From a virus (taxonomy: Duplodnaviria; Caudoviricetes), in the IMG/VR virus record IMGVR_UViG_3300032304_001646, positions 1-58,903 of that record: 58,903 nucleotides of DNA; one strand, given 5' to 3'. Of the stretch, positions 2-55,648 are shown one piece after another (position 1 is the first letter of the stretch; each line of letters starts with the position of its first letter). Position numbers and translations under genes: made by a program. The notes under the pieces are model-generated. The model made no database searches and was not told where the DNA came from. It worked only from the letters and a program-made list of their open reading frames with translations.

Positions 2-574
2 CAAATTCCTATTCAAATCTTAAAAGCAGGTATTTCCGATGAGATGTATGAAATGTATCCAGAACTAAAAGAAAAGAGAGTTGGATTGGGTGTTGCAAAT
101 ATCACAATGGAATATTTAGAAAATCTTAATCGTTTCAAATTTACCGAAGATAAAACGGAAATTAAGAATAGAATGGTTAAACAATTCCAAGCATCAGCAA
201 CTGGAATTTCCGAAAACAAATTAGATGGTAGAGGAAAAATTAACTTAGCAGAATATTTTGTGACTGTTGAGTGTTATGATTATTCGGTATCGGAAGATGA
301 AACTATAAATTTAACAAATGGTGTTAAAAATCTAATGGTAACTCGTATTGGTTTACAGGTTCGTTTTACAAACGCAGAAACTGGTGTAGTATTCGGAGCA
401 AGTGGATTGGGTGAAGCTAAAACTACAAGAGAATTAACAATACTTTCAGATGCAACTGTGGATGAAGTTAAATTTAATCAATCAACTATTTCAATAGCAA
501 CTAAGAAAGCATTAGATATTGCTTGTGCTAGAATTTTAGACAGAATGGTTAAAAAAGGAATATTCGAAAAATAA
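2..574 (+). CDS. CsgG/HfaB-like outer-membrane protein, 5'-truncated by the window edge
   Basis: The frame is open from position 2 (QIPIQILKAGISDEMYEMYPEL...). GLGVANI...RFKFTE...AEYFVTVECYD...RIGLQVRFTNAETG...GLGEA recalls the CsgG-like alpha/beta fold. Confidence 0.55.
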   Translation, partial: QIPIQILKAGISDEMYEMYPELKEKRVGLGVANITMEYLENLNRFKFTEDKTEIKNRMVKQFQASATGISENKLDGRGKINLAEYFVTVECYDYSVSEDETINLTNGVKNLMVTRIGLQVRFTNAETGVVFGASGLGEAKTTRELTILSDATVDEVKFNQSTISIATKKALDIACARILDRMVKKGIFEK

Positions 575-1110
575 TGATTAAGTTAAGAGATATACTATCG
601 GAAGACCTATTTGGGACATCATTAAAATTGAAACCATATGAATCCTTAATGGTTAAATCGGTTGTTTCTTTTATGATGGATAAGTATAAGTTTAAAGCTA
701 AGATTATAGTAAAGAAAAAAGATAAAGCAGGTATGATTGGAGACATATCATTGAACTCAAACTCTGTAGATAATAATAAATTCTATTTACATTTTAATCC
801 TAACCAATCATATAAAAGAATTATCCAATCTATGATACACGAATTAACTCACGTTAAGCAGGTATCCAAAGGTGAGTTATTACCAAACAAAGATTATACT
901 TCTATCCTATGGAAAGGTAAGGAGTATATCGATGCAAAGGAGTATGGTAAATTAATGAAATCAGATATTTCCGCATATAGAAACCTACCGTGGGAAATGG
1001 AAGCTGATACTAATATGACAGGTTTATATCCTATGTTTATTAACTCCAAACATTGGAAAGATTTAAAAGGTAAGGATGATACGTTAGATTATATAATTGA
1101 TAATATTTAA
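574..1110 (+). CDS. Putative zinc metallopeptidase (HExxH) with MIKLRDILSE leader
   Basis: MIHELTHVKQ motif plus downstream LPWEMEA (third-ligand Glu pattern); start overlaps the upstream stop (TAATG). Confidence 0.7.
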   Translation: MIKLRDILSEDLFGTSLKLKPYESLMVKSVVSFMMDKYKFKAKIIVKKKDKAGMIGDISLNSNSVDNNKFYLHFNPNQSYKRIIQSMIHELTHVKQVSKGELLPNKDYTSILWKGKEYIDAKEYGKLMKSDISAYRNLPWEMEADTNMTGLYPMFINSKHWKDLKGKDDTLDYIIDNI

Positions 1111-1114
1111 TAAT

Positions 1115-1684
1115 ATGATTAAGTTAAAGAATATATTAAACGAAGGTTCAAAAAATCCCGCTAATATAAAAGCGTATTATGAAGCATTGTGTAAGAATGA
1201 AAAGGTAACTCCTTTGCCTGTAAAATTTGGTAACGTTGGACAGGGTGGAGCGGCTTTAACATTCAATCCTAAAACAATGAAAGCTCTTTATATTTCTTTT
1301 AATGTAAATCGAATGATGGATCCTGAATATGCTGTTATTCACGAATTAACACATCAAATAAAATTAGAAACCGAAAAGGATGCATATTTGGGGAAAAAAG
1401 ACCAAACTGCTAAATTCAAAAAATTAGAAAATAAATTAGTTGAAAAATATATGTACTCTAAGTTTTCAAATATATTGTATAAGGAAAATAAAGAAATGAA
1501 TGAAAAGTTTTCAGTACAAGGTATGCGTGCTAGAGAAATAATATCTACTATATTAACAAAGACAGATTTCGCAGCAGGAGATATTGATTCTCAAAAGAAA
1601 CATAAAAGAATGATAGATGATTTAGTAAACATTCTTAATAACTTTTATGAAAAATATAATATAGATAAAAAAATTACATTGTGA
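1115..1684 (+). CDS. Putative zinc metallopeptidase (HExxH) with MIKLKNILNE leader
   Basis: AVIHELTHQ motif; start moved from 1097 to the ATG at 1115, which restores the shared leader. Confidence 0.6.
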   Translation: MIKLKNILNEGSKNPANIKAYYEALCKNEKVTPLPVKFGNVGQGGAALTFNPKTMKALYISFNVNRMMDPEYAVIHELTHQIKLETEKDAYLGKKDQTAKFKKLENKLVEKYMYSKFSNILYKENKEMNEKFSVQGMRAREIISTILTKTDFAAGDIDSQKKHKRMIDDLVNILNNFYEKYNIDKKITL

Positions 1685-2415
1685 TTAAACTAACTGATAT
1701 ATTAAACGAAGGGGTTAAAGATGGTGTAGTTACATGTGATAAATGTAATTGGCATTGGAATATATCAGATGGTGGAAAACATCCATACATATGTCATAAA
1801 TGTGGAAACGATAACACTCCAATAAGTGAAGACCTTCGTAAATGGTTTGGTAAAGGCGGAGGAGGTTCATCAACCGGTGGTGGATGGGATAGATATAATT
1901 CACAGGGAAAAAAAGTAGGCAAGTGTGGTGATAGTAAAGATGGTTCAGCATATGCGGCTTGTTTATCAAAAGAGAAAGCAGCAAAGTTAGGACCCGATGG
2001 TAGGGCTTCATTTGTAAAAAGAAAAAGAGCTGCTCAATCCAAAGCGGGTGATTCTAAAAAAGGTGGTGAACGAAAAAAAGGACAGAGACCAACATTAGTA
2101 AAGACAGGTGCAAGTGAAAATGTAAAAGAAGATTGGTCTCAAAAATATAAAAAATCAATTGATTGTAGTAACCCAAAGGGTTTTTCACAAAAAGCACATT
2201 GTGCCGGAAAAAAGAAAAACGAAAATATGAAACTAACAGTAGAACAAAAGATGGAACTATTTTTAGAAAAGAATGTTCCAACACAACCAGCAAAATGGGC
2301 AGCATCCGTAGCAGCAGCTAAACGAAAATTTGATGTATATCCATCTGCTTATGCAAATGGTTGGGCTGCAAAAAATTATAAAGCCAAAGGTGGTGGTTGG
2401 AGAACCGCTAAATAA
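1681..2415 (+). CDS. Basic multi-module protein, probable head-internal polyprotein
   Basis: GTG start, MIKLTDILNE leader. Modules: CDKC...CHKC zinc ribbon; E/DLRKWF; E/DWSQKYKKSIDCSNPKGFSQKAHC; E/KNVPT...KFDVYPSAYANGW. Confidence 0.6.
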   Translation: MIKLTDILNEGVKDGVVTCDKCNWHWNISDGGKHPYICHKCGNDNTPISEDLRKWFGKGGGGSSTGGGWDRYNSQGKKVGKCGDSKDGSAYAACLSKEKAAKLGPDGRASFVKRKRAAQSKAGDSKKGGERKKGQRPTLVKTGASENVKEDWSQKYKKSIDCSNPKGFSQKAHCAGKKKNENMKLTVEQKMELFLEKNVPTQPAKWAASVAAAKRKFDVYPSAYANGWAAKNYKAKGGGWRTAK

Positions 2416-2416
2416 T

Positions 2417-2626
2417 ATGATAAAGTTAAGTAGTTTAATCAACGAAGTAGAAGTAGGACAGGGACACGAAAACGATAGAGATATGGTTGTAGGTGTTGCT
2501 GAAATACTTCGTATGGTAGATGATATGAACAATCGAAAAGAAATAGCAGAAGCTATGTTAAGAAAATTTAAATCAGAAGATGTTATACATAATGCAGCAG
2601 AATTTTTAACACTTTGTGGCATTTAA
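2417..2626 (+). CDS. Small hypothetical protein with MIKLSSLINE leader
   Basis: ATG at 2417, just after the upstream stop; shared leader motif. Confidence 0.65.
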   Translation: MIKLSSLINEVEVGQGHENDRDMVVGVAEILRMVDDMNNRKEIAEAMLRKFKSEDVIHNAAEFLTLCGI

Positions 2627-6025: not shown

Positions 6026-6033
6026 TATTTATA
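6026..6033 (+). promoter_or_regulatory. TATTTATA putative phage late promoter element
   Basis: Recurrent 8-mer in short intergenic gaps a few to about 40 nt upstream of start codons. Confidence 0.6.
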
Positions 6034-6051: not shown

Positions 6052-6702
6052 ATGAAAAAATTTGTTAATTTCAAAAACATTGCCATAGCAGCATTAATAA
6101 TTTACATCCTTTTACAATGGTTTAATCCAGGTGGAGTAATGCCAGGTGGAAGAACTATCAGAATTGATGGTAAAAAATACGAAGTAATTAAGCACGAAAT
6201 AGATACGGTTGATATTGTAAAGACTAAAGTGGTAACTAAAAAAGGTGAAGATATCTACCACGAAACAATTGTAGAGAAAGAAGTAATTATCCCAGCCGTA
6301 ATTGATACTTTAGCATTATTAAAAGATTATTATTCAAAAGTATTATATAAAGATACATTAATTTTACCTGATTCATTAGGGACTGTATCTGTAATCGATA
6401 CTATTTCACAAAACAAAATCTTAGGTAGAACTTTCAACGCAAGTGTTAAACAAAGAACTATCAAAGAAACTATGATTGTGAAAGAGCCTGCAAAAACTCA
6501 ATTGTATTATGGTTTGAATGCTGGATTTAACAAAGAAGATTATGTTTCAGCAGTTGGAGCTGGTTTTATTCTTAAAACTAAAAAGGATAAAATCTATAAC
6601 TTAAACATTGGTGTAAACAATAGAACTGTTGATGGAACTAATGGTTCATTTTCACCTTATGTTGGATTTGGTACTTATTGGAAAATTAAAGTAAAGAAAT
6701 AA
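6052..6702 (+). CDS. Membrane-anchored envelope protein (possibly spanin-like)
   Basis: N-terminal TM segment (IAIAALIIYILLQWF), periplasmic beta-rich region, C-terminal aromatic beta strands. Confidence 0.45.
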   Translation: MKKFVNFKNIAIAALIIYILLQWFNPGGVMPGGRTIRIDGKKYEVIKHEIDTVDIVKTKVVTKKGEDIYHETIVEKEVIIPAVIDTLALLKDYYSKVLYKDTLILPDSLGTVSVIDTISQNKILGRTFNASVKQRTIKETMIVKEPAKTQLYYGLNAGFNKEDYVSAVGAGFILKTKKDKIYNLNIGVNNRTVDGTNGSFSPYVGFGTYWKIKVKK

Positions 6703-6703
6703 G

Positions 6704-7516
6704 ATGATAAGTTTAAAGAAAATATTAAATAAAGAACCACAATCGATAAACGAAGTAACATTACAAAAAGGTAAAACTTATGGTGGTACTAAATGTGAAG
6801 GTGGATGTTTTATGGGTAAAGAAGGTTTAAAGAAAATAATTAAAATATCAAAGGATTCTCCCAAAGATGTTTTTATGTTTAGAGATGATAACTATTCTGG
6901 ATTACAACCACATTTTGTTAAAGATGGTGTAATTGCAAAAGCGACTGTACTCAATCCGGCTTATGATTTAGAAAAACATAAAGTAAGAAATTTGAATATT
7001 GGTAAGGATGTAATTCTTACAGTAAGATTATTCGTATCAACAAATGAATCGGTAAACGAAGGTTTGTATTTTGTGGGATATAATAAAGGTAGAGGACAAG
7101 GTACAGGAGTTTTTAAAGATTCGTATTCATCATATAAAGATGCTAAGAAAGCAGTAGAAAAACTTGAAAAGGAAAGAGGTGGTTCATATAATATGATTGC
7201 TTATTATGTATCTGATAAAGATGGAAAATTTGTAAGAGAATCGGTGAACGAAGCAAAAGCACCTTACGAAGTATATCACAAATCATATACATCAGCAATT
7301 GAAGCAGCTAGAGAATATGCAGAGAAAAAAGGATTTGAAATAGATAATGATGATGCTTTTAGAAAAATAGGAGTAGGACCTCGTAAACCATCGGAAGGTA
7401 AAACTAATAGTTTTAGCATACAATTATCTAAAGATGGTAAATCACAAAGAAAGCAACTTCATATACAAGTCTATGGTATGAAGAATTCTTATGAACTAAA
7501 CGCATATATCGGATAA
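6704..7516 (+). CDS. Multi-module protein with SINE/ESVNE linkers, probable head-internal polyprotein
   Basis: MISLKKILNKEPQSINE leader and two internal ESVNE linkers dividing three modules. Confidence 0.6.
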   Translation: MISLKKILNKEPQSINEVTLQKGKTYGGTKCEGGCFMGKEGLKKIIKISKDSPKDVFMFRDDNYSGLQPHFVKDGVIAKATVLNPAYDLEKHKVRNLNIGKDVILTVRLFVSTNESVNEGLYFVGYNKGRGQGTGVFKDSYSSYKDAKKAVEKLEKERGGSYNMIAYYVSDKDGKFVRESVNEAKAPYEVYHKSYTSAIEAAREYAEKKGFEIDNDDAFRKIGVGPRKPSEGKTNSFSIQLSKDGKSQRKQLHIQVYGMKNSYELNAYIG

Positions 7517-7519
7517 TAA

Positions 7520-8335
7520 ATGAAACTTTCAGAGTGCATTATTGTATCTAAGGAAATTAAAGATAAATTTATTCTAGCTAAGAATAGAGATAGAGCTTAT
7601 AATCCATCTTTAGAAATTGTACATACTATCATTGATGGTTTGGAAGTTGCATATCTACATGATTTAATAACTGATTGGAGTGAAGGTTTAAATGAAAATG
7701 GAATTGGTGTTGTAAACGCAGCACTATTAGTTGGACATGATGAAGCTGAAGCTAAGCTTGTAAAGAAAGCTGGAAAGCCGGGACCTGATGGTGATAAGAT
7801 GAGAAACATCATTAAGCAACCTACCCTAATGGCTGCAGTAAGAGCAGCACTTCAATATAAAGGTAAGACTGGATTATCTTTGAAAGGTCACACATTTGTA
7901 TCATCACCAAAACATATGGTTAGTATTGAAACTACATCAAAGCATAAGCCGGATGTTAAACTTCAAAACTCCGAATCACCTGTTGTTCGTACAAATCACG
8001 GACATATGTTTACCGATGCTGGATATACACATGGTGAAAAATATCTAAGTTCAAAAATGAGAAAGATATCAGCTGAAAAATCAGTTGATAAAGTAGATGA
8101 TTGGAAAGAGATATCACAAGCTATGAGAAAGGAATACTTTCCAAATAGACCGGCTCTTAATATGAAAAGAGATACAAAAGAGATGTCTACTTCATCTCAA
8201 ACTGTAATGAACCTAACTGATAAGATATTACAAATAACTTACTTTAAGAACAAAGTAAATGAATTCAAAGGTATCAATAGACAACTACCTGATGGATATC
8301 AACCAAAGATTACAATTGAAGTAATCGCAGTTTAA
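7520..8335 (+). CDS. N-terminal nucleophile (Cys) hydrolase, NRDE/TANGO2- or C45-like
   Basis: MKLSE-CIIVS...LAKNRDR, WSEGLNENGIGVVN, VVRTNHG, TSSQTVMNL motifs typical of Ntn hydrolases. Confidence 0.7.
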   Translation: MKLSECIIVSKEIKDKFILAKNRDRAYNPSLEIVHTIIDGLEVAYLHDLITDWSEGLNENGIGVVNAALLVGHDEAEAKLVKKAGKPGPDGDKMRNIIKQPTLMAAVRAALQYKGKTGLSLKGHTFVSSPKHMVSIETTSKHKPDVKLQNSESPVVRTNHGHMFTDAGYTHGEKYLSSKMRKISAEKSVDKVDDWKEISQAMRKEYFPNRPALNMKRDTKEMSTSSQTVMNLTDKILQITYFKNKVNEFKGINRQLPDGYQPKITIEVIAV

Positions 8336-12254: not shown

Positions 12255-12752
12255 ATGGATACGGACAAACTATTAAAAGCTATTCAGATTCTTATTAAAG
12301 AGGAGCTTAAAGAGCAATTGCCTGCATTAATTAAGGAAACTGTGAGAGCTGAAGTAAAAAAACTAATAGCAGAAGGAAAACAACCTGTTAAATCACAACC
12401 AATTGGATTATCAATGGCTAAAGCTATTTTAGAAGATGATGTTATTATAGAATCGGTTAAAGAAAAAGTAGAACAAAAAAAATTTAGTAAAAACCCAATG
12501 ATTAATCAAATCCTCAATGAAACAAGAGGTGGTATTCCACAAGGTGATGGTGGATTCAGAACAATGAATTTTGGACAGGGTGATATGGGTTCAATTGTAG
12601 GTAGAACTGCAATAGCTGAAAAAATGGGGTATGGTGATTTAGCAAAAGGACCTTCTCCTACTGGATTAGGTGTAAACACTGGAGTGCCTGAATTGGATAA
12701 AGCATTGAATAGAGATTATTCTGAATTGGTTAAAAGATTTAAAAAGAAATAA
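12255..12752 (+). CDS. Hypothetical protein (structural cluster)
   Basis: Clean ORF coupled (TAATG) to the gp25-like gene. Confidence 0.6.
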   Translation: MDTDKLLKAIQILIKEELKEQLPALIKETVRAEVKKLIAEGKQPVKSQPIGLSMAKAILEDDVIIESVKEKVEQKKFSKNPMINQILNETRGGIPQGDGGFRTMNFGQGDMGSIVGRTAIAEKMGYGDLAKGPSPTGLGVNTGVPELDKALNRDYSELVKRFKKK

Positions 12753-13180
12753 TGGCAGTAATACTTGGTAAAAAGTTAGTAATCGATTCAAAGCAGTTTG
12801 AAGACTATGCAATAGGTATAACATTACCTATTCAAATAGGAAATACTGCTTTTAATCAAAGTTTTATAACTGCTGACCAGGTTAAAAGTAATATTAAAAA
12901 TTTATTACTTACAAAAAGATTTGAAAGATTGATGCAGCCTGAATTTGGGAGTGGTATTCAAGAATTATTATTTAATATGAATGATGAAATGTTTGCTGAT
13001 AACTTAGAAAATAATATTGTTGATACACTTTCTAAATGGTTACCATATGTAAATGTAGAAACTATTAATATCCAGCAATCAAACGAATTTAAAGATAATA
13101 ATAAGGTTGAAGTATCAGTTTCATTTAGAGTATCAGATACACAGGTATTAGATACGGTAACTTTTAATGTACAAACATAA
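12752..13180 (+). CDS. Baseplate wedge protein, GPW/gp25 family
   Basis: QVKSNIKNLLLT..ERLMQPEFGSGI.ELLF, WLPYV motifs. Confidence 0.9.
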   Translation: MAVILGKKLVIDSKQFEDYAIGITLPIQIGNTAFNQSFITADQVKSNIKNLLLTKRFERLMQPEFGSGIQELLFNMNDEMFADNLENNIVDTLSKWLPYVNVETINIQQSNEFKDNNKVEVSVSFRVSDTQVLDTVTFNVQT

Positions 13181-15216
13181 TGGCTATAACAACAATAAAT
13201 AAGAATTTTAAAAATAAAGGAAAGGATATAAAATATCTTAATAAAGATTTTGCAGCATTTAGAGCAAATCTTATTGATTTTACAAAAAATTATTTTCCAA
13301 AGACCTATGGTGATTTTAACGAATCATCTCCTGGTATGCTTTTTATTGAAATGGCATCATATGTAGGTGATGTTTTGGCTTATTACACAGATGATACATT
13401 GAAAGAATCTTTAATGCCTTATGCAGAAGATATTCAAAGTATTATAGCTCTTGCACAATATTTGGGGTACAAACCAAAAGTAACATCTCCGGCAGTAACA
13501 ACATTATCGGTTTATCAATTAGTACCATCTATTGGGGTTGGTGCTAGTAATAGACCAGATGATACTTTTTATTTAAAAGTAAGAGAGGGGATGATTGTAG
13601 CAAATCAAGCGGGTACCGTTCAATTTATAACAACCGATATGGTGGATTTTTCAAATGAAATTGATAGAGAGACGACCATATATCAAAGAGATGTACTTAC
13701 AGGAGAACCTACATTTTATTTAATAAAAAAATATGTACAAGCAATATCAGCCGTAAGAAATCAAAAAGAAGTAACGTTTGGAAGTTATGAAAATTTTAGA
13801 ACAATTGATTTACCGGAAACAAATATAATTGAAATATACGATTGTAGAGATTCTAATAATAATAAATGGTATGAAGTGCCGTATTTAGGACAAGAAATGA
13901 TATTCATTGATTACCCAAATACCGAAGCTAACGATTCAGACCTATATCAGTTTAAATCAACTGTACCATATGTTTTAAAAACAATAAAAACACCAAAACG
14001 ATTTACAACTAGAGTAAACCAAGATAGTACAATTACAATTGAATTTGGTGCAGGAGACCCAACGGCATCTGATGAACAATTAATTCCAAATCTTAAAAAC
14101 GTAGGATTGGGATTACCAAATTCTATTAAAAGATTGGATGAATCATTTGACCCAACTAATTTTTTAAAAACAAAAACGTATGGTACTTCACCATCTAATA
14201 CAACAATGACTGTAAAATATTATACAGGTGGAGGTATTAGTTCAAATGTTGCAGCAGGAGAATTAACAAGAATTAATGGGGTTGAATTTGAAGAAAGTTT
14301 AAGTTCTTTTACAAGAGCCCAACTTTCACTTTATAATTCTGCAAAAAATTCATTAGCAGTTGATAACGATGTACCTGCAGTTGGTGGTAGAGGTGGTGAA
14401 ACTTTAGAAGAAATTAGACAAAATGCATTAGCAAATTTTGGAGCTCAAAATAGAGCAGTAACTGCAAAAGATTATCAAATTAGAGTATTATCAATGCCAT
14501 CGAAATATGGAGCTATAGCAAAAGCATATGCTGTTGCGGATGGAACATTGGATAACAACTCACCTTCATCTATATTAGCATCACCAAACAATTTACAAGA
14601 ATTTACTGATTTAGTATTAGATTTTGTAAATAAACCAGATGATTTAGAACCAACTGAGCAAGATATAAAACAACAAATTACTAATTTTTTAATTGGTAAA
14701 ACTTCAAATGAAAATGAAAAAAATAATCCATTTGCTATTAACTTATATCTATTAGGATATGATATAAATGGTAATTTGACAAATTTAAATAGAGCCGTAA
14801 AAGAAAATCTTAAAACATATATTAACGAATACCGAATGTTAACGGATGGTATAAATATAAATGATGGGTTTGTAATTAATATTGGTTTAGAATTTGAAAT
14901 TATAACATATCCAAATTATAATAAAAATGAAATATTAACAAAATGTATAAACGAAGTAAAAGATTTCTTCAGTATAGATAATTGGCAGTTTAATCAAACT
15001 ATTAATTTAAATGAAATTGAATTGTTATTAGCAAATGTAGAAGGAGTTTCATCTGTTCCATCTGTAAAAGTTACAAATAAGTGTGGTGGTAGATATTCAC
15101 CAAATTCGTATAATATCGAAGCGGCAACTAAAGATAAAATTGTATATCCATCATTAGACCCTTCAGTTTTTGAAATTAAGTTTCCTAGTGGGGACATAAA
15201 AGGCAGAGTAAGATAA
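13180..15216 (+). CDS. Baseplate wedge subunit (T4 gp6 / baseplate J-like)
   Basis: YLNKDF, DFNESSPGMLFIEMASYVGDVL, AQYLGYKP, GGRGGETLEEIR..A...QNRAVTAKDY motifs. Confidence 0.88.
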   Translation: MAITTINKNFKNKGKDIKYLNKDFAAFRANLIDFTKNYFPKTYGDFNESSPGMLFIEMASYVGDVLAYYTDDTLKESLMPYAEDIQSIIALAQYLGYKPKVTSPAVTTLSVYQLVPSIGVGASNRPDDTFYLKVREGMIVANQAGTVQFITTDMVDFSNEIDRETTIYQRDVLTGEPTFYLIKKYVQAISAVRNQKEVTFGSYENFRTIDLPETNIIEIYDCRDSNNNKWYEVPYLGQEMIFIDYPNTEANDSDLYQFKSTVPYVLKTIKTPKRFTTRVNQDSTITIEFGAGDPTASDEQLIPNLKNVGLGLPNSIKRLDESFDPTNFLKTKTYGTSPSNTTMTVKYYTGGGISSNVAAGELTRINGVEFEESLSSFTRAQLSLYNSAKNSLAVDNDVPAVGGRGGETLEEIRQNALANFGAQNRAVTAKDYQIRVLSMPSKYGAIAKAYAVADGTLDNNSPSSILASPNNLQEFTDLVLDFVNKPDDLEPTEQDIKQQITNFLIGKTSNENEKNNPFAINLYLLGYDINGNLTNLNRAVKENLKTYINEYRMLTDGININDGFVINIGLEFEIITYPNYNKNEILTKCINEVKDFFSIDNWQFNQTINLNEIELLLANVEGVSSVPSVKVTNKCGGRYSPNSYNIEAATKDKIVYPSLDPSVFEIKFPSGDIKGRVR

Positions 15217-18691: not shown

Positions 18692-21600
18692 ATGATAGCA
18701 GTAGAAGAAATATTAAGCGATGGTGGTTTAGGTCGTGGTGAAACTGACGGAGGTGGCGGTGGCGGCGCAAATGGCGGAGGTGGCGGTGGCGGCGCAACTA
18801 GCGGTGGAACTGAAACTGGCACCGGCGGAACTCCTCCTGCTATGGTCTATCTTACTGATAAGCCAAACACACCTTTAAGTAATTTCTCAGGAAAATTACA
18901 AATAAAATGTGTAATCGGTGATATTCTTTCAAAAACGTATTCTGGTGAAAAAATACAAGCATCAATTTATATAAATGAACAATCATCTGGATTAGTAAGT
19001 CCAAGTGAAATTAAATTATCTGCAAGAGATATTTTTAATAATGGAGATTATAATATTAAAGTAGTTGGAAACGGTTATAAAAAAAGTGTTGAAAATTATG
19101 TTATAACATTAATACCGAGTCCAAATTATAATGTTAACGATAACCCTGTTTATACGGCAATCCCTTTTTCAGAAGAAGGAAAAACAAATAATTTAAAAAT
19201 TATAGGATTATCTAAATTTGAATTTTTACCAACAATAGATGAAAATAATCCAGAGTATGGAAACACTAATTTTTATGAGTTTAAAATAATACATTATATA
19301 AATGGTATTGTGCAACCGGAAACGATTGCAGAAATTGATAAAGATATTACGTTTATTTTAGAAAAAGCTGGCGCTACGGATGATGGTGAAGATAATTTAG
19401 GCAATGTACAGGCATTGACGGTTGTGTTAACCGGTGCAGATGGTAGTGCTCAATTACTTATTGATAATGCAGATGGAACTGCTGGAGAAACAGTTACACT
19501 TAACTCAGGTGTTAATGGTATAACAACATTAATAGGTAAAATTGTTACAATAAAAAGTAATTCAGTAGGAAATACTATATCAAGAATAACAGAAATAGCA
19601 GTATCAGCGAATGGTTATACAAGTGAAAAATTATTGGCAGTAACCGATACGGAATCGGTTAGTACTAAGATAACAATAGATAAAACATATGTAGTTGATA
19701 TTCAAACAGAAACTATACCAGTAATATCATTGGATAAACCCTCTATAAGTTTTGTAAATCCTGATTTAAATAGAAAACATAACATCAATTCTGAAATTGA
19801 TGCATACATTGGAATTTATAAAAATGAGTTTACGGAAGGAGTAAGAGTTAAGTTTGCAAATGAAGAACTTACATATTCAAATTTAGCAGCAGGCGAATCT
19901 GCATTAATTAACATACCTTTAGCTAAATTACCAACAGTAGGAAAATATAGAATAATTATAATACCATTTACTAGTAATGGTAATGATGGAGACCCAATTG
20001 AGTTAATGTTAAATGTAGTATCTGAAACTTATGTTGGTGTACCTGATATTAGAAATATAAATTACCCAACATTAATAAAAGGTCCAGATTATGTAGGTAC
20101 AAATGTAAATTTTAAAATTAGTTATGAATCAGTAAGTACTGATTATGTAAGAATATCTGTATTAGGAAGTTCTCAACACACACAAGCTACATCTGCGGGA
20201 AATGTAACATTAAATTATCAACAATTACTTAATTCACCTGGTGCACAATATACTGAAAGTGATGGTTTAATATCATTAACATTAAAATTAGTACCATATA
20301 ACGAACAAGGAAACGAAGTTGTTGTTGGTAAGGAAGAATTTATTACAATACAATTTGATAAAAGTGAATTAACAATACCGAGAAATGTAGTTATTAATAG
20401 ATTAGTTGATGGGTTTATATCACAATTAAATACCGCATCTTTAGTAGATGAATCATCGAAATATTTAAATCACTTATTACATTTACCAAACGATAATAAA
20501 TTAATTACAACTTGGTTGGGTAGTGAGGGTTCTTTGATTTTAAAATTATATGAGCCATTATCAACTGCAATACAACCAAACCAACAGGTATGGATTTCTA
20601 AATTACAGTCAGACCCAATTATAGAAACAATAAATATAACTGGTGAAAATGCAAGTTTTTGTCCTCCATTAAAAGGTCCTAACTTTTCATTGGAAGAAAA
20701 TAATGGAGTTGCATATCAGATATTGGATGATTTGATTGCAAGTGGTTCAATAACTTCAAATGATATAGTTAATAATTATTTAGAAGGAACAAATGTTAAT
20801 ACTACTAAATTAAATTTACAATATGTAAGTGGTTCAGATTATACATTTAAATCTTTTTCACATTTTGGTTCAGCTGAAGAAAGAGCCGCTAATTTCTTTT
20901 ACAAAGTAAAATTATTAGAAACTTACAAAGCGAGATATGAAGCATTAATAGCAACAACATTCATTCCACCGTATGATGGTTATAATGGTGGTATTTTAAC
21001 GGAAAATGGATTTCAAGTAATAACTGAAGATGGTCTATTTGATGTTCAATGGGAAATTGCACAATCAAGTGGTGTAAATCAAGCCGGTGAAGCTAAAAAA
21101 GTATTAAATACAATAAATGGTATTTTAAGAAATTTTGATGGATTTGAAAACTTTTTATACAAATCAAATAACAATTTAGCATATCCAAAGGTATTATATG
21201 TACATCCAATTACGGGATTAGGAACACTTATTTTAAGGGATACAACGCACGCAAGTGTTACTGCATGGTATAATGTATTAATTGATGAAGCGGCAAATTA
21301 TGATAAATACAATCCTAATTATTTAGTAAATAATATACCTGAATTTATTAGAGAAGATTATAATAATAATGATTTTATAGTTTTCTTAGATATGATTGGT
21401 CAACACTTTGATATAGTATGGGCTTATGTTAAAGCATTGGATAATAATAAAATATTAGAACATAAACAAATCAATGGTTTATCAAATACATTAGTTTCTC
21501 AAATGCTTCAATCGTTTGGTTGGAATCCTAAAAACGCTTTTAATTCACCATTCTTATGGGAATATGCATTTGGTAAAACAAAAGATGGATTTCAAAAATA

Positions 21601-27790: not shown

Positions 27791-27822
27791 TTAGGTTATA
27801 TCAGATAATTTTCGTATATTTG
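27791..27822 (+). promoter_or_regulatory. Bacteroidota-type housekeeping-sigma promoter (-33/-7)
   Basis: TTAG-N20-TATATTTG versus consensus TTTG-N19-21-TAnnTTTG, upstream of primase. Confidence 0.6.
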
Positions 27823-50571: not shown

Positions 50572-51009
50572 ATGATTAGACTTAAAAATATCTTAAATGA
50601 AGATGAATATGTAGATAACGCATATTCTTTGGGTGATACTCCACATGACAATCCAATTGATGATTATGATGAGTTGGATGTTGAGCAAGAAGATATGGAT
50701 GATTTCATAAACTTCTTAAAGGGGTATTCAACGCAATTGGAAGAAGCAAATTGTAATTGTGTGTATGAAGCCGAATATCAGGGTAGAGATGTTAAGTTAG
50801 GTAAACCAACACAAGGTGATGTTAAGAAGTTTAAAGTTTATGTTAAAAACCCAAAAACAGGAAAGATAATTAAAGTAAACTTTGGACAAAAGGGGATGAA
50901 CATTAAAAAAAATAACCCAGGAAAGAGAGCAAACTTTAGAGCAAGACACAATTGTGATAATCCAGGTCCTAGAACAAAAGCAAGATATTGGTCTTGTAGA
51001 AAATGGTAA
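50572..51009 (+). CDS. Protein with MIRLKNILNE leader, acidic pro-region and basic C-terminal module
   Basis: Acidic segment, then E/AEYQGRDVKLGKP...VNFG...FRARHNCDNPGPRTKARYWSC. Confidence 0.7.
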   Translation: MIRLKNILNEDEYVDNAYSLGDTPHDNPIDDYDELDVEQEDMDDFINFLKGYSTQLEEANCNCVYEAEYQGRDVKLGKPTQGDVKKFKVYVKNPKTGKIIKVNFGQKGMNIKKNNPGKRANFRARHNCDNPGPRTKARYWSCRKW

Positions 51010-51017: not shown

Positions 51018-52793
51018 ATGGCAGAACAAGAATTAGATGATAGAAGTTTCTTTGGTAGGTTAAAGAAATTATTTTCAACAAAAGCAATTGTAACCGTTGA
51101 TAAAGATGGTAATCGTAAAGTTGTCGATACTGAAGAACGTCAATCAAGCACAAACTTTGTAAATCTTAAAGATAGATATACTAAGTTACAAAGGTCTTAT
51201 TATGAAAATAATCAAGGAGCTCAATCAATGGCATATCATCAAGTTCGTAGAGAACTTTTTAGAGATTACGATGCTATGGATTCAGACCCAATCATTGGTT
51301 CAGCGCTTGATATATACGCAGATGAATCTACAACTAAAAATGAATATGGTGATGTTCTTCAAATTAAATCTACAAATGAAAATGTAAAAGATATGTTACA
51401 TAATTTATTCTATGATATAATGAACATAGAATTTAATTTGTGGCCTTGGATTAGAAATTTAGTAAAATACGGTGATGCTTTCTTAGCATTAGAAATTATG
51501 CCTGGTAAAGGTATTGTTAATGTTGCTCCACATTCAATCTATAATGTAGAAAGATTAGAAGGTAGTGACCCTAATAATCCAGATTATGTAAAGTATAAGG
51601 TTGAAATGGACCGTTTTGGTAAAAAAGAATATGAGCAATATGAAATGGCTCACTTTAGAATGTTATCTGATACAAACTTTCTACCATATGGTAAATCAAT
51701 GGTAGAGGGAGCTAGAAGAATTTGGAAACAATTATCGTTAATGGAAGATGCGATGTTAATCCATCGTATTATGAGAGCACCTGAAAAAAGAGTATTTAAA
51801 ATTGATATAGGTAATATTCCACCGCAAGAAGTGGATAACTATATGCAGAAGATTATTAATAAAATGAAAAAAACTCCATTTGTTAATAAAGATACCGGTG
51901 ATTATAACTTAAAATATAATATACAAAACCTTACTGAAGATTTTTTCCTACCTGTACGTGGTAGTGATAGTGGAACAACTATTGATAACTTACAAGGTTT
52001 AGAATACGCAGCTATTGAAGATATTGATTACTTAAAGAATAAATTATTTGCAGCATTAAGAGTACCAAAGGCTTACTTATCGTATGATGAGAACGTAAAT
52101 GGTAAAGCTACTTTGGCGGCAGAAGATGTTCGTTTTGCTAGAACTATCGAAAGAATTCAAAGAACGGTTGTTAGTGAATTAACTAAAATAGCAATTGTAC
52201 ATTTAGCAGCACAAGGTATCGATGATTCTGAAATGACTAATTTTGAATTAACTTTAACTAACGCATCTACAATTTATGAGCAAGAGAAGGTTAATTTGTG
52301 GTCTGAAAAAGTAAGATTAGCATCCGATGTAAAAGCACTTAATATGTTATCATCGGATTGGGCTTATCATAATGTATTTGGATTATCGGAAGATGAGGTA
52401 AATATTGAAAGAGCTAAAGTAGTTTTAGACCTTAAAGATAGATTTAGATATAATTCAATTGAACAACAAGGACAAGACCCAGCAAATCCACCAGAACAAC
52501 AAAATGTGGAAGAAGAAATCAGTAAATTAAAAACTGAAATTGAATTAAACAGAGGAATTGGTAGACCTAGAGAAGGTAATACATATGGTAAAGATAAACA
52601 TCCATATGGTAGAGACCCATTAGGTAATAAAGAAAATGAGAAAGAGAGAAAAAGAGAGGATAGAGTATTAAATACAAACGCTAAGAAGCTAGCAAGGGAA
52701 TATATAAATGGAATTTCATCAAAAAAACAAGTTTTAATTGAAAAAGCGGGTATGCTTGATGAAAAAAATCTATTAGATGATACTAAAATTTAA
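51018..52793 (+). CDS. Portal protein (T4 gp20-like)
   Basis: ALDIYADE, PYGKS, LMEDAMLIHRIMRAPEKRVFKIDIGN, EDFFLPVRG, DIDYLKNKLFAALRVP. Confidence 0.95.
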   Translation: MAEQELDDRSFFGRLKKLFSTKAIVTVDKDGNRKVVDTEERQSSTNFVNLKDRYTKLQRSYYENNQGAQSMAYHQVRRELFRDYDAMDSDPIIGSALDIYADESTTKNEYGDVLQIKSTNENVKDMLHNLFYDIMNIEFNLWPWIRNLVKYGDAFLALEIMPGKGIVNVAPHSIYNVERLEGSDPNNPDYVKYKVEMDRFGKKEYEQYEMAHFRMLSDTNFLPYGKSMVEGARRIWKQLSLMEDAMLIHRIMRAPEKRVFKIDIGNIPPQEVDNYMQKIINKMKKTPFVNKDTGDYNLKYNIQNLTEDFFLPVRGSDSGTTIDNLQGLEYAAIEDIDYLKNKLFAALRVPKAYLSYDENVNGKATLAAEDVRFARTIERIQRTVVSELTKIAIVHLAAQGIDDSEMTNFELTLTNASTIYEQEKVNLWSEKVRLASDVKALNMLSSDWAYHNVFGLSEDEVNIERAKVVLDLKDRFRYNSIEQQGQDPANPPEQQNVEEEISKLKTEIELNRGIGRPREGNTYGKDKHPYGRDPLGNKENEKERKREDRVLNTNAKKLAREYINGISSKKQVLIEKAGMLDEKNLLDDTKI

Positions 52794-52859: not shown

Positions 52860-53729
52860 ATGAAAAAAATAAAACATTCCAAATTTAAGAATACTGGAGT
52901 GTTATTTGAATTATTAGTAAGACAAATAACATTAGAAGTACTTAATGGCGACAAAACTGAAAATGCAAAGAATATCTTAAGAGAATTCTTTTCTCCAAAT
53001 ACGGAGTTAAATAGAGAATTACGTCTTTATGATATATTGTTAAAAGAAAAGTATAGTTCTGAAACAAAAGCCGATAGATTGGTAGAAACCGTATGTGATG
53101 CGCATAATAAACTAAACCACGTTGCACTTTCTAAAGAAAAATTCAATCTTATTAAAGAAATTTCAGAAAAATTTGAAATTGAACAATTTTTAGCATCTCC
53201 TATTTCTAATTATAAAACATTAGCATCTATATATAAAGTATTTGAATCTAAAAGAGTAGATGGATATGATATTAAAGATGTATTTAATTCAAAGATTACC
53301 CTAATCGAAAACATTACATCAAAACCCGCTCAAAAAACTCAACCAACTGATGAAAAAAAGTTGATTGAAACTTATAAACAACAAGATAAAGACCTTAGAT
53401 TACTTACCTATAAGATTCTAGTTGAAACTTTTAATAAAAAATATACAAACTTAGATGATTCTCAAAAGAATTTGTTGAAAGAGTATATAAATAACATTTC
53501 AAATACTACGAAATTCATAGATTATGTTGGAAAAGAATTACCAAACATAATTGCAGAATTAAATATTATTAAATCAAAACTAAAAGATAGAGTTACACAG
53601 ATTAAATTATCAGAAACTATTTCTCTTTTAGAAAAAATGAAAATTGGAAAAACTGTATCTGATTCTCAAGTTTCATCTATTATGCTTTCTTATGAGCTAA
53701 TTAAAGAACTTAAATCTAAAGTAAAATAA
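52860..53729 (+). CDS. Hypothetical head-morphogenesis-region protein
   Basis: KHSKFKNTGVLFELLVRQI N-terminus; lies between portal and protease. Confidence 0.6.
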   Translation: MKKIKHSKFKNTGVLFELLVRQITLEVLNGDKTENAKNILREFFSPNTELNRELRLYDILLKEKYSSETKADRLVETVCDAHNKLNHVALSKEKFNLIKEISEKFEIEQFLASPISNYKTLASIYKVFESKRVDGYDIKDVFNSKITLIENITSKPAQKTQPTDEKKLIETYKQQDKDLRLLTYKILVETFNKKYTNLDDSQKNLLKEYINNISNTTKFIDYVGKELPNIIAELNIIKSKLKDRVTQIKLSETISLLEKMKIGKTVSDSQVSSIMLSYELIKELKSKVK

Positions 53730-54286
53730 TGGAAGCAAGATTAAAAGAAGCAATTCGTAAATACGTTAGAGAAAGAAACATTCAAAAAACTTTGGATGAA
53801 ATGTCTGTAACGGCTAATGTTGCTGGATATGATACTCCAAACGCATTTTCAAAACCAGGACAAACTGCTAAGAAAAACAAAAGATTGGCAAATATAACCG
53901 GTGGTGAAGTTGTTGATGATTTAGAGGAAGTAAAGATATTAAATCTAAAGCAAGAAAAAGAAAAACCAACAGCAGCTAAAAAAGAACCAGGTGCGGAAAT
54001 TGCAGTTATTAGTGGTATGGAATTAGCGGAAAAAAATTTACATTTAGCTGAAAATCGTTGGGTAGCATTAAAAAAAGAAGATGGTTCTGCAAAATCTAAA
54101 ATAGGTAAAGGTATAACATCTATCAAACAACAATTGGGTGAAGTTGAAAAATTTGTTAATTGGTATTCAAAGTTAAAGACTGAGAATGGTGTTACTAAAG
54201 ATGATTACTATAAAAGAACACATAAAAGTTTACATAAAATCAAAGAAAGATTAATGAATCTTTCAGAAAAAATTAGAAATTTATAA
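53729..54286 (+). CDS. Hypothetical head-region protein
   Basis: Coupled ORF; LDE/MSVTANVAGYDTPNAF module. Confidence 0.6.
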   Translation: MEARLKEAIRKYVRERNIQKTLDEMSVTANVAGYDTPNAFSKPGQTAKKNKRLANITGGEVVDDLEEVKILNLKQEKEKPTAAKKEPGAEIAVISGMELAEKNLHLAENRWVALKKEDGSAKSKIGKGITSIKQQLGEVEKFVNWYSKLKTENGVTKDDYYKRTHKSLHKIKERLMNLSEKIRNL

Positions 54287-55051: not shown

Positions 55052-55648
55052 ATGAAATCACTCTTAATAGAAACAAACCTATTCGAAGGTAAGGTAAATG
55101 AAGATGAGGGAGGAAGAACCTTAGTAAAAGGAGTTCTACAAAGAGCTGGTGCCGAGAATCAAAATGGTAGAGTTTATCCAAAGCCTATATTAGAAAGAGA
55201 AGCTAAGAAATACGAAACGTTTATTAAGGAACGTAGAGCATTAGGTGAATTAGACCATCCGGATTCTACTGTAATAAACTTAAAGAATGTTTCACACAAC
55301 ATTAGAGAAATATGGTGGGAAGGTGATGATTTATGTGGAACTGTTGAAGTTCTATCTACTCCATCTGGTAATATCCTTAAGGAATTATTGAAAGCCGGTA
55401 TCCTATTAGGTATCTCATCAAGAGGTATGGGTTCAACTAAACCTTTAAGTGGAAATAAGGTTGAAGTATCCGAAGATTTTGAATTGATTGGTTGGGATTT
55501 TGTATCTAATCCATCTACACATGGTGCATTTATGGTGCCTGTAAACGAATCCGTAAATAGAGGTTTACAACAAATAGGAACTGATGTTTGTGGTGAGTAC
55601 TGCAAAGCACAAGATTTAATGAGAGAAATAATAACTGAAATAGCATAA
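55052..55648 (+). CDS. Prohead core protease (T4 gp21-like, peptidase U9)
   Basis: NQNGRVYP, ALGELDHP, VSH, TPSGNI, GISSRGMGS, DFVSNPST motifs. Confidence 0.95.
   Translation: MKSLLIETNLFEGKVNEDEGGRTLVKGVLQRAGAENQNGRVYPKPILEREAKKYETFIKERRALGELDHPDSTVINLKNVSHNIREIWWEGDDLCGTVEVLSTPSGNILKELLKAGILLGISSRGMGSTKPLSGNKVEVSEDFELIGWDFVSNPSTHGAFMVPVNESVNRGLQQIGTDVCGEYCKAQDLMREIITEIA

What the first reader, a model, noticed from the sequence alone, without database searches (positions are those of the whole stretch)
7520..8335. Ntn hydrolase apparently encoded as a zymogen activated by the prohead protease
Seen: the sequence reads MKLSE|CIIVS...AKNRD, so the presumptive catalytic Cys directly follows an L-x-E site. 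Established: Ntn hydrolases need the nucleophile as a free N-terminus (NRDE/TANGO2 proteins begin Met-Cys), and gp21-type proteases cut after (I/L)-x-E. Inference: the enzyme stays inactive in the producing cell and is switched on only during head maturation, acting in the virion or after injection. The substrate is unknown.
Basis: partly seen in the sequence, partly recalled or inferred. Interest (0 to 1): 0.8.

Follow-up and report, generated by a model that had tools for sequence, protein, structure and literature searches.

The report
Phage amidase capped by head-protease site
A large T4-like phage encodes an amide-cleaving enzyme whose essential first residue is hidden behind a five-residue cap that ends in the cutting motif of the phage's own head-maturation protease, so the virus probably uses that protease to switch the enzyme on, although no cut has been measured.

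Summary
ORF 7520..8335 (+, 271 aa) starts MKLSE-C. It folds with high confidence (pLDDT 95.1) as a Cys N-terminal-nucleophile (Ntn) hydrolase. Cys6 lies on the first residue of mature NAAA, isopenicillin-N acyltransferase, bile-salt hydrolase and TANGO2 chains (Z 16-21).

The window also encodes a T4-type Peptidase_S77 head protease. At least five other ORFs carry a 10-residue leader, MI[KR]Lxx[IL][IL]xE.

Among 270 homologs, the residues before the Cys fall into three classes: Met-Cys, [LIVM]-x-E|C (P1 = E in 147 of 147) and [KR]-x-[AGS]|C. The third class sits in jumbo phages with a ClpP-type head protease and no S77 match. In one complete genome, 27 other proteins share a leader that ends [KR]-x-[AS]. 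So in both lineages the cap matches that phage's own leader end.

Trans-activation by the head protease is the best reading (about 0.65). Self-processing is not excluded. Met-Cys relatives show that latency is not obligatory. The substrate is unknown. It passes neither the TANGO2/NRDE nor the AAT Pfam model.

The scan noted the same idea earlier on other DNA. I found no published description.

The parts
7520..8335 (+). Cys-Ntn hydrolase precursor gene (271 aa)
   Evidence: ORF. AF2 model pLDDT 95.1, pTM 0.92. Ntn fold matches. 1078 homologs, none with an informative name.
7520..7534 (+). Five-residue cap MKLSE, ending in L-x-E (P3-P1)
   Evidence: Conservation of [LIVM]xE before the Cys in 98 of 120 close and 48 of 150 distant homolog clusters.
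7535..7537 (+). Cys6 codon (TGC), predicted N-terminal nucleophile after cleavage
   Evidence: Invariant in alignment A1. Model residue 6 aligns with the first residue of mature NAAA beta chains, IAT Cys103, BSH Cys2 and TANGO2 residue 2.
7583..7591 (+). N22-R23-D24 motif of the active site
   Evidence: R23 and D24 invariant, N22 at 90% or more. Same spacing from the Cys as IAT N119/D121 from C103 (passages of PMC13044924).
7994..8062 (+). N159 to R181, second half of the predicted catalytic set
   Evidence: Both invariant. The 22-residue spacing equals IAT N246 to R268. Assignment is by spacing and invariance, not by residue-level superposition.
55052..55648 (+). T4 gp21-type head maturation protease (Peptidase_S77)
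   Evidence: Pfam PF03420, E 1.4e-28, 100.1 bits against a cut-off of 27. phrog_207 head maturation protease, 2.1e-50.
574..1110 (+). ORF with leader MIKLRDILSE
1115..1684 (+). ORF with leader MIKLKNILNE
1681..2415 (+). ORF with leader MIKLTDILNE (GTG start). Its homolog is fused upstream of the Ntn domain in P0155.
   Evidence: blastp 56% identity over 197 aa, E 1.3e-62, to the N-terminal part of P0155, whose Ntn domain follows L-N-E|C.
2417..2626 (+). Small ORF (69 aa) with leader MIKLSSLINE
50572..51009 (+). ORF with leader MIRLKNILNE
6704..7516 (+). Upstream neighbour, leader MISLKKILNKEPQSINE. Same reading frame as the Ntn gene, separated by TAA TAA.
6026..6033 (+). TATTTATA promoter-like motif heading the three-gene unit 6052..8335
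   Evidence: 10 of 16 + strand copies lie within 70 nt upstream of gene starts, including the baseplate, fibre and head-core units.
52860..54286 (+). Two ORFs between portal and protease enriched in [LI]xE (14 against 5.5 expected; 8 against 2.9), candidate core/scaffold substrates
   Evidence: Position as T4 genes 67/68 is recalled, not tested.
51018..52793 (+). T4-type portal protein (context)
   Evidence: Pfam Portal_T4, 1.1e-68.

Best explanation
The gene encodes a cysteine Ntn hydrolase (an amide-bond hydrolase or acyl-transferase of the IAT/NAAA/bile-salt-hydrolase/TANGO2 superfamily) made as an inactive precursor, MKLSE-Cys6.

The phage's own T4-type head maturation protease (Peptidase_S77, 55052..55648) cuts after Leu3-x-Glu5 inside the assembling prohead. 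That frees the alpha-amino group of Cys6 and so creates the catalytic nucleophile. The mature enzyme is then a head-internal cargo protein that is delivered with the DNA into the next host. There it hydrolyses an as yet unknown amide substrate.

Shown:
- the fold and the position of the Cys;
- the conserved catalytic residues;
- the motif and its conservation;
- the protease gene;
- the family of leader-bearing proteins in the same phage;
- the parallel motif switch in a second phage lineage.

Inferred: the cut itself, packaging, injection and the substrate.
For: 1. Fold. The AF2 model has pLDDT 95.1. Foldseek's top PDB hits are IAT, CV2077, bile-salt hydrolases, NAAA and PVA. VIA-align gives Z 21.2 for 3gvz, about 20 for NAAA beta chains and 19 for IAT. 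The model starts at residue 6 opposite the first residue of the mature chains.

2. Catalytic set. C6, D24, N159 and R181 are invariant and N22 is at 90% or more. Their spacing is the same as IAT C103/N119/D121/N246/R268.

3. Motif. P1 is E in 147 of 147 leaders that end in E, with no D. P3 is L/I/V/M in 146 of 147. P2 is free and the length is variable. This is the gp21 rule L/I-X-E. Asp at that position blocks processing in T4 (passages of PMC9026906).

4. Same genome. S77 protease. Five ORFs carry MI[KR]Lxx[IL][IL]xE and one a longer variant. [LI]xE is enriched in ORFs next to the protease.

5. Some homologs carry the full leader before the Cys, for example MIKLKDILTE-GKALLRE|C and MIKLLDLIKKNNINE|C. 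A leader-bearing window protein is fused to the Ntn domain in P0155.

6. Second lineage. 73 of 150 distant clusters have [KR]x[AGS]|C.
- Six such records give no S77 match; three of them are 95% or more complete.
- Of the five of these that were searched for it, four have a ClpP-type protease.
- In complete genome G004, 27 ORFs share a leader ...LExR[IV]AxLE followed by [KR] (24 of 27), any residue, then A or S (25 of 27). The Ntn gene there starts MDKNA|C.

7. The gene sits in a unit headed by the same TATTTATA motif as the baseplate, fibre and head-core units.

8. Long homologs are multi-domain proteins with topoisomerase IB (13 of 35), RNA-ligase, 2H, nucleotidyl-transferase and ChaC domains, among others. 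This is the kind of protein proposed to be injected with phage DNA (PMC5512222, passages).
Against: - No cleavage, virion proteomics or activity data exist. Only two cultured phages hold a homolog, 2 of 50,697 records.
- Ntn hydrolases as a class activate themselves (abstract of PMC9140057 in the listing). A five-residue cap could be removed in cis.
- 21 of 120 close and 16 of 150 distant clusters start Met-Cys. In G011, which has S77 and MRIxEILxE-type leaders, the Ntn gene starts Met-Cys. A cap is therefore not required for the family's function.
T4 propeptides described in PMC9026906 span 7 (Alt) to 65 residues, and targeting sequences 10-19. How this protein would enter the prohead is open.
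- The scissile bond is at the start of a core beta-strand, which may be hard for a foreign protease to reach (my inference).
- The E-to-A switch maps to one split in the domain tree, so the motif/protease-type correlation is a single evolutionary contrast.
- One class-A record estimated 89% complete (G008) and one 50% complete (G010) gave no S77 match.
- In other class-B loci only 16 of 28 leader matches are followed by [KR]x[AGS].
Confidence: 0.65

Rival explanations
1. Self-processing. The precursor removes its own cap by the usual Ntn mechanism: the Cys thiol attacks the preceding peptide bond. The head protease plays no part. The L-x-E is either what cis-cleavage needs in this family or a relic of an ancestral targeting leader.
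For: Autocatalytic activation is the hallmark of the superfamily (abstract of PMC9140057 in the listing). The closest sequence family, AAT/IAT, is self-processing, and precursor and mature structures 2x1c and 2x1d are among the best matches. Internal Ntn domains in long multi-domain homologs could free themselves in cis. Met-Cys relatives show that the enzyme works without any protease.
Against: Cis-cleavage gives no reason for strict L/I/V/M at P3 and E at P1 with a free P2 and any leader length, including 3- and 4-residue caps such as MINE or MNE. It also gives no reason for the same fold to use [KR]x[AGS] in another lineage. In each lineage the motif equals the end of the leader carried by unrelated proteins of the same genome.
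Confidence: 0.22
2. Cytoplasmic enzyme with an irrelevant or merely translational N-terminal extension. The protein acts in the infected cell, is not packaged, and either works with a blocked N-terminus (as a binding protein, as debated for TANGO2) or is trimmed by host peptidases.
For: Met-Cys forms exist in S77 phages. The cap is too short to be a T4-style targeting sequence. TANGO2 is reported as an acyl-CoA binding protein (title and abstract of PMC11867700 in the listing).
Against: All five IAT-type catalytic positions are invariant or nearly so, which argues for catalysis that needs a free alpha-amine. The strict P3/P1 conservation is not explained. Full-length leaders occur on some homologs, along with fusions to leader-bearing and multi-domain cargo-like proteins. 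The promoter-like motif is shared with virion genes.
Confidence: 0.08
3. The Ntn domain is itself the peptidase that removes the leaders, from itself and from the other leader-bearing proteins. On this reading the shared motif reflects its own specificity.
For: The motif before the Cys equals the leader end in both lineages. Some Ntn hydrolases are peptidases: the C69 dipeptidase is among the fold matches, Z 17.
Against: L/I-X-E cleavage in T4-type phages is the established activity of gp21, and an S77 protease is present. The ClpP-type head protease is present in the other lineage. Only 2 of 50,697 cultured phage records have the Ntn gene, so T4-type leader processing does not depend on it. 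Met-Cys forms coexist with leaders in G011.
Confidence: 0.03

Closest known systems
Phage T4 internal proteins IPI-III and Alt: N-terminal capsid targeting sequence removed by the gp21 prohead protease
   Same: Short N-terminal propeptide ending L/I-x-E, an S77 protease in the genome, and several unrelated proteins sharing a roughly 10-residue leader (T4 facts from passages of PMC9026906 and PMC3012670). Alt is a packaged enzyme with a 7-residue propeptide.
   Different: In T4 the cut only releases the cargo. Here it would create the catalytic nucleophile, so the cut site must abut the Cys exactly. Neither packaging nor cleavage has been shown.
Acyl-CoA:isopenicillin N acyltransferase (IAT; Pfam AAT PF03417; PDB 2x1c/2x1d/2x1e)
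   Same: Best Foldseek match (E 6e-09). Z 19, with model 6..263 on chain 103..349. The spacing of the five catalytic residues is identical. 31 of 60 homologs touch the AAT model.
   Different: IAT cleaves itself between Gly102 and Cys103 and keeps its alpha chain (recalled). The window protein does not match the AAT model, has only a 5-residue cap ending in Glu, and lacks the alpha subunit.
TANGO2 / NRDE family (PF05742; PDB 8sv7, 9bwa)
   Same: Same fold (Z about 16) with residue 6 on TANGO2 residue 2. NRD motif. Met-Cys starts in 37 of 270 homolog clusters.
   Different: No Pfam match for the window protein, and 3 of 60 homologs match only weakly (best E 0.0056). The motif reads NRDR, not NRDE. 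R181 is kept where TANGO2 has Lys166. Structural matches to CV2077, NAAA and IAT are better.
Polyvalent proteins of phages and conjugative elements (Iyer et al. 2017, PMC5512222)
   Same: Distant homologs are domains of 400-2800-residue proteins that combine topoisomerase IB, RNA ligase, 2H phosphoesterase, nucleotidyl-transferase, HAD, GNAT, ChaC/GGACT, SOD and Zeta-like domains. This is the architecture that paper proposes is injected with the DNA.
   Different: That paper's text has no occurrence of NRDE, TANGO2 or 'N-terminal nucleophile'. It proposes built-in metallopeptidases for processing, not the head protease. The window protein is a single domain.

Membership tests
Cys N-terminal-nucleophile (Ntn) hydrolase superfamily | Four-layer alpha-beta-beta-alpha fold | tested here: met
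   AF2 pLDDT 95.1. 96 PDB matches at E <= 0.001, led by IAT, BSH, PVA and NAAA. Z 16-21.
Cys N-terminal-nucleophile (Ntn) hydrolase superfamily | Nucleophile is the first residue of the mature chain, at the start of a central strand | tested here: met
   Model residue 6 aligns with the first residue of NAAA beta chains, IAT 103, BSH 2, PVA 1 and TANGO2 2. Cys6 is invariant.
Cys N-terminal-nucleophile (Ntn) hydrolase superfamily | Conserved Asn/Asp near the nucleophile plus oxyanion Asn and Arg | tested here: met
   N22, D24, N159 and R181 are invariant or at 90% or more, with IAT-like spacing. Assigned by spacing, not by residue-level superposition.
Cys N-terminal-nucleophile (Ntn) hydrolase superfamily | Free alpha-amino group on the nucleophile in the active enzyme | not testable with these tools
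   Needs N-terminal sequencing or intact-mass measurement.
Pfam AAT (PF03417) / IAT-like self-processing acyltransferases | Match to the family model above its cut-off | tested here: not met
   No AAT match for the window protein at E <= 1. 31 of 60 relatives match, best E 8.2e-10. It is therefore a neighbouring branch, not a member.
Pfam AAT (PF03417) / IAT-like self-processing acyltransferases | Autoproteolysis at Gly|Cys leaving an alpha/beta heterodimer | tested here: not met
   The residue before the Cys is Glu, and only 5 residues precede it. The chemistry itself is not testable here.
TANGO2 / NRDE (PF05742) | Match to the family model | tested here: not met
   No match at E <= 1. 3 of 60 relatives match, best E 0.0056.
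TANGO2 / NRDE (PF05742) | Met-Cys start and NRDE motif | tested here: not met
   The window protein starts MKLSE-C and reads NRDR. 37 of 270 homolog clusters do start Met-Cys.
T4-type head-internal cargo (CTS plus gp21 processing) | Peptidase_S77 head protease in the same genome | tested here: met
   PF03420, E 1.4e-28 at 55052..55648.
T4-type head-internal cargo (CTS plus gp21 processing) | N-terminal propeptide ending L/I-x-E | tested here: met
   L3-S4-E5. Conserved in 146 of 147 E-ending leaders.
T4-type head-internal cargo (CTS plus gp21 processing) | A targeting sequence of about 10 residues sufficient for prohead entry | tested here: inconclusive
   The window cap has 5 residues. Full MIKLxDILxE-type leaders occur on other window ORFs and on some Ntn homologs.
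T4-type head-internal cargo (CTS plus gp21 processing) | Presence of the cleaved protein in virions and ejection into the host | not testable with these tools
   No proteomics are held. Only MA9V-1 and MA9V-2 are cultured carriers.

The most novel reading that the evidence does not exclude
Capsid maturation proteases of at least two unrelated types (T4 gp21/S77 and ClpP-like) act as activating convertases for a widespread jumbo-phage Ntn hydrolase. Each cuts exactly in front of the catalytic cysteine. The enzyme is thus loaded inert, armed inside the head and injected ready to work, alone or as one module of large injected multi-enzyme proteins. This would be the first Ntn hydrolase whose nucleophile is made by a foreign protease. 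It would also mark a large, unstudied system of leader-tagged capsid cargo (27 or more proteins in one 312-kb genome).
Probability: 0.5. Interest if true: 0.8.

Novelty: new variant of a known kind. Interest (0 to 1): 0.7.

Why it matters
Ntn hydrolases are a textbook case of enzymes that activate themselves. A family whose nucleophile is unmasked by a viral capsid protease would be a new activation logic for the class. It would also give a natural timing switch that ties enzyme activity to virion assembly.

The motif in front of the Cys also works as a built-in reporter of head-protease specificity in uncultured phages: L/I-x-E with S77 proteases, [KR]-x-[AS] with ClpP-type proteases.

The finding further exposes large sets of leader-tagged proteins, probably head cargo, in jumbo phages that have no cultured representative. 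It links them to injected multi-domain proteins that carry RNA-repair and topoisomerase modules.

The idea can be tested at once with MA9V-1 virions or with recombinant precursor plus protease.

Tried and rejected
- Direct family assignment failed. Pfam gave only two chance-level hits, PHROGs gave none, and PDB sequence search with the single protein and with a 60-sequence profile gave nothing.
- The whole genome of the window is not held, so the major capsid protein, which lies outside the window, could not be checked for an L-x-E site.
- The T4 late-promoter word TATAAATA is not enriched: 21 found against 18.3 expected. Its reverse, TATTTATA, turned out to be the informative motif.
- Peptidase_S78 (HK97-type) was sought in five class-B records and not found.
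- Close relatives fetched from viral contigs (80 loci, all 89% identical or more) added no diversity.
- A test of independent motif switches failed. The [KR]x[AGS] class forms one clade, so the motif/protease correlation rests on one contrast plus the within-genome leader match.
- In G011 an abundant N-terminal word (EIAP, 36 ORFs) looked like a leader but is a paralogous family of about 97-residue proteins.
- I ran no complex prediction of protease with precursor, because enzyme-substrate pairs are poorly served by that test.
- The MA9V-1 papers were seen only as a search listing and not read. I do not know whether they include virion proteomics.
- A substrate could not be inferred. The ChaC fusion in G004 and in 3 of 35 long homologs hints at gamma-glutamyl or glutathione-type amides, but these are multi-domain proteins in which fusion need not mean a shared pathway.
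Full report
**Observation**

ORF 7520..8335 (+) encodes 271 residues that start MKLSECIIVSKEIKDKFILAKNRDR. The ATG at 7520 follows two in-frame stop codons. Cys6 is TGC at 7535-7537. No alternative start could place the Cys at position 2. The L3-x-E5|C6 arrangement is therefore real and unavoidable for this gene.

**What the protein is**

Sequence libraries do not name it.
- Pfam gives two chance-level hits and PHROGs none.
- PDB sequence searches with the protein and with a 60-sequence profile give nothing.

It has many relatives. The 5.8-billion-protein search found 1078 with E <= 0.001 among 1593 candidates, and none of the 120 listed has an informative name. Among 50%-identity representatives, 449 match, 163 of them at E <= 1e-30. 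Only 2 of 50,697 cultured phage records hold a homolog, Chryseobacterium phages MA9V-1 and MA9V-2, at about 43% identity.

An AlphaFold2 model built on a 60-sequence alignment is confident, with pLDDT 95.1 and pTM 0.92. Foldseek finds 96 PDB matches at E <= 0.001. They are led by isopenicillin-N acyltransferase (IAT, 2x1c, 6e-09), CV2077 (3gvz), bile-salt and penicillin-V hydrolases, and NAAA.

The second-look aligner gives Z 21.2 for 3gvz, about 20 for NAAA beta chains, 19 for IAT and 16 for TANGO2. In row after row the aligned range starts at model residue 6, opposite the first residue of the mature chain: NAAA 126/128/131, IAT 103, BSH 2, PVA 1 and TANGO2 2.

In the family alignment C6, K21, R23, D24, Y27, E55, G56, N58, N66, G123, N159, G161, G168 and R181 are invariant. 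C6, N22, D24, N159 and R181 have exactly the spacing of the IAT catalytic residues C103, N119, D121, N246 and R268, as listed in passages of PMC13044924. That mapping rests on spacing and invariance, not on a residue-level superposition.

Scanned one by one, 31 of 60 relatives touch Pfam AAT (best E 8.2e-10) and 3 of 60 touch TANGO2 (best E 0.0056). The window protein itself passes neither model. It is therefore an apparently catalytically complete Cys-Ntn hydrolase of a branch next to IAT/NAAA. It is not a TANGO2/NRDE member.

**Surroundings**

The window is part of a T4-like jumbo phage with 31% G+C. It holds:
- a T4-type portal, 1.1e-68;
- a Peptidase_S77 head protease at 55052..55648, 1.4e-28;
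- a large terminase;
- gp25- and gp6-like baseplate genes;
- a glycoside-hydrolase tail lysin.

Five ORFs start with a near-identical 10-residue leader:
- 574: MIKLRDILSE
- 1115: MIKLKNILNE
- 1681: MIKLTDILNE
- 2417: MIKLSSLINE
- 50572: MIRLKNILNE

The gene just upstream of the Ntn gene (6704) has a longer variant, MISLKKILNKEPQSINE. After the Glu the sequences diverge.

This is the layout of the T4 capsid targeting sequence. In T4, 10-19-residue leaders end in L/I-X-E and are removed by gp21. Residues 8 and 10 govern processing, and Asp at position 10 blocks it. Alt, a packaged enzyme, loses only 7 residues (passages of PMC9026906 and PMC3012670).

ORFs next to the protease are enriched in [LI]xE: 14 against 5.5 expected, and 8 against 2.9.

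The Ntn gene is the last of three genes (6052..8335) behind a TATTTATA motif. The same motif heads the baseplate, fibre and head-core units. 10 of its 16 + strand copies lie within 70 nt upstream of gene starts.

**Homologs: three ways to reach the Cys**

| Set | [LIVM]xE\|C | Met-Cys | [KR]x[AGS]\|C | Truncated or not assessable | Other |
|---|---|---|---|---|---|
| 120 closest clusters | 98 | 21 | 0 | 1 | 0 |
| 150 distant representatives | 48 | 16 | 73 | 10 | 3 (LGQ, TSE, RLV) |

In leaders that end in Glu, P1 is E in 147 of 147. P3 is L 83, I 47, V 12, M 4 and T 1. P2 is free. Leader length runs from 3 (MNE) to over 100 residues.

Some class-A homologs carry the full window-type leader before the Cys. 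Examples are MIKLKDILTE-GKALLRE|C, MIKLINLIKQPLNE|C and MIKLLDLIKKNNINE|C.

Several have the Ntn domain inside a longer protein, still preceded by [LIV]xE. In one of these, P0155, the upstream domain is homologous to the leader-bearing window ORF 1681..2415, with 56% identity over 197 residues and E 1.3e-62.

**The second lineage**

Class-B proteins are often 400-2800 residues long. They combine the Ntn domain with other domains:
- topoisomerase IB, in 13 of the 35 scanned;
- RNA ligase and 2H/LigT phosphoesterase;
- poly(A)-polymerase-type nucleotidyl-transferase;
- HAD, GNAT, SOD, pyrophosphatase and phosphatidylserine decarboxylase;
- ChaC/GGACT and Zeta-like domains.

These resemble the polyvalent proteins proposed to be injected with phage DNA (PMC5512222). 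The text of that paper has no occurrence of NRDE, TANGO2 or 'N-terminal nucleophile'.

Six class-B records gave no S77 match: G001-G005 and G007, three of them estimated 95% or more complete. The search did find S77 in MA9V-1, whose homolog reads FLNE|C, in class-A record G009 and in Met-Cys record G011.

Against the pattern, class-A records G008 (89% complete) and G010 (50%) gave no S77 match. The class of G006 could not be read in my script.

S78 was absent from five class-B records. A ClpP-type protease was found in G002, G003, G004 and G007, but not in G001. In G004 it is the PHROG 'head maturation protease', 3.7e-39, and matches Pfam CLP_protease at 1.2e-25. It lies about 9 kb from the Ntn gene.

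G004 is a complete 312-kb genome with terminal repeats. In it, 27 ORFs share an N-terminal leader of about 20 residues...SAQQIRSLEMRIARLE. The leader is followed by K or R (24 of 27), any residue, then A or S (25 of 27). After that, similarity falls off. LEKx[AS] occurs 22 times in the first 45 residues of 328 ORFs and 13 times in all the rest.

The Ntn gene of the same genome starts MDKNA|C and is fused to a ChaC domain.

Similar leaders occur in 13 of 26 other class-B loci. In those, 16 of 28 matches are followed by [KR]x[AGS]. The loci without them hold long proteins in which a related RVA[AS]R[HFY]L motif sits at the termini and between domains, often 8-14 residues before the [KR]x[AGS]|C.

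**Reading**

In two lineages with different head-protease families, the three residues in front of the catalytic Cys copy the end of the leader that unrelated proteins of the same genome carry. In the T4-like lineage that end is the experimentally known gp21 site. Self-processing offers no reason for this pattern, nor for strict P3 and P1 with a free P2 in caps as short as MINE.

The most economical explanation is that the head protease cuts there. Because the enzyme needs a free Cys alpha-amine, that cut is also the activating step. I put this at about 0.65.

**Against this reading**

- Nothing has been measured.
- The superfamily is known for self-activation (abstract of PMC9140057, seen in the listing).
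- The E/A switch is one split in the domain tree. Only the Met-Cys state arises repeatedly, with 12 Fitch changes in all on a midpoint-rooted FastTree of 147 domains. Before that tree I dropped sequences that were truncated or lacked an identifiable Cys, and I added only 8 of the 120 close clusters.
- Met-Cys forms, 37 of 270, show that the family can do without a cap.
- In G011, which has S77 and MRIHEILSE- and MRMSDLLLE-type leaders on neighbouring genes, the Ntn gene starts Met-Cys.
- The leader may serve mainly for targeting, with the exact junction forced by Ntn chemistry.
- The five-residue cap of the window protein is shorter than any T4 propeptide described, so its route into the prohead is open.

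**Function**

The substrate is unknown. The fold neighbours all cleave or transfer acyl-amide bonds in lipid amides, bile-salt conjugates, penicillins and dipeptides. The recurrent company of counter-defence-like modules, and the ChaC fusions, suggest an injected enzyme that acts on a host small-molecule or peptide amide. That is inference only.

**Novelty**

I found no paper that links an Ntn hydrolase to a prohead protease or to phage head cargo. The two Aravind-group papers were checked by term search only. The library does not cover subscription journals.

The scan itself has noted the same idea before on other DNA. The notes are e1-5913447 (the same MKLSE|C cap in another genome), e1-5784480, and e1-5374501 and e1-5374485 (R-Q-A|C). 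I read them after reaching my own reading. They are not independent evidence.

I class this as a new variant of a known kind. T4-style leader-and-protease cargo processing is known. Its use to create the nucleophile of an Ntn hydrolase, and its parallel in ClpP-type jumbo phages, is not.

Noticed in passing
window 574-2626 and 50572-51009: Five ORFs share the 10-residue N-terminal leader MI[KR]Lxx[IL][IL]xE. This looks like a T4-style capsid targeting sequence. None has a Pfam family, and their functions are unknown.
   Followed up: partly
window 6026, 8358, 12227, 23982, 25965, 40021, 44545, 52812, 2675, 4253 (+ strand TATTTATA): TATTTATA lies 20-60 nt upstream of ten operon-head genes, including the baseplate, fibre and head-core units. 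It is probably the late promoter element of this phage. 10 of the 16 + strand copies are so placed.
   Followed up: partly
window about 27810-27841, 40355-40385, 57245-57274: A different upstream motif, TTTTCGTATATTTG or TTTTGTATATTTGT, precedes the primase, glycosyl/methyl-transferase and DNA-methylase genes. It may be a host-type (Bacteroidota-like) early promoter.
   Followed up: no
window 6704-7537: The upstream leader-bearing ORF and the Ntn ORF are in the same reading frame, separated only by TAA TAA. This suggests a former fusion, as in the long homologs.
   Followed up: partly
G004 (L154-L169), whole record: 27 ORFs of a complete 312-kb phage genome start with a conserved leader of about 20 residues, ...LExR[IV]AxLE-[KR]-x-[AS]. 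The genome has a ClpP-type head protease at 97119..97850. This is a large leader-tagged protein set for which I found no description.
   Followed up: partly
P0134, P0135, P0141, P0197 and others; G004 ORFs 12477..13862, 92406..93053, 219229..220242, 221883..223139: A short motif, RVA[AS]R[HFY]L, recurs at N-termini, at extreme C-termini and between domains of class-B multi-domain proteins, sometimes twice in tandem. It may be a docking or cleavage signal.
   Followed up: partly
G004 87009..88430 (-); also P0253, P0268, P0236: The Ntn domain is fused to a ChaC/GGACT gamma-glutamyl-cyclotransferase domain. This is a possible hint to gamma-glutamyl or glutathione-type substrates.
   Followed up: no
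G011 (L170-L186): 36 paralogous ORFs of about 97 residues start M.[FI]EIAPK.TE and contain GWRLPT. They are scattered in arrays over a 327-kb phage record.
   Followed up: no
L151 (MA9V-1 record 126606-126944): The Peptidase_S77 match of Chryseobacterium phage MA9V-1 lies in an open frame of 1349 residues. The protease may be part of a much larger protein there.
   Followed up: no
window 18692-23932 and 32177-40012: Two giant ORFs of 1746 and 2611 aa have no family match apart from a weak CBM_5_12 hit in the larger one. The first has a long Gly-rich N-terminal stretch.
   Followed up: no
(ESM Atlas): Bacillota clusters named 'conjugal transfer protein' that carry CBAH/AAT domains are among the feature look-alikes (score 0.94). 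Ntn hydrolases may also travel with conjugative elements.
   Followed up: no
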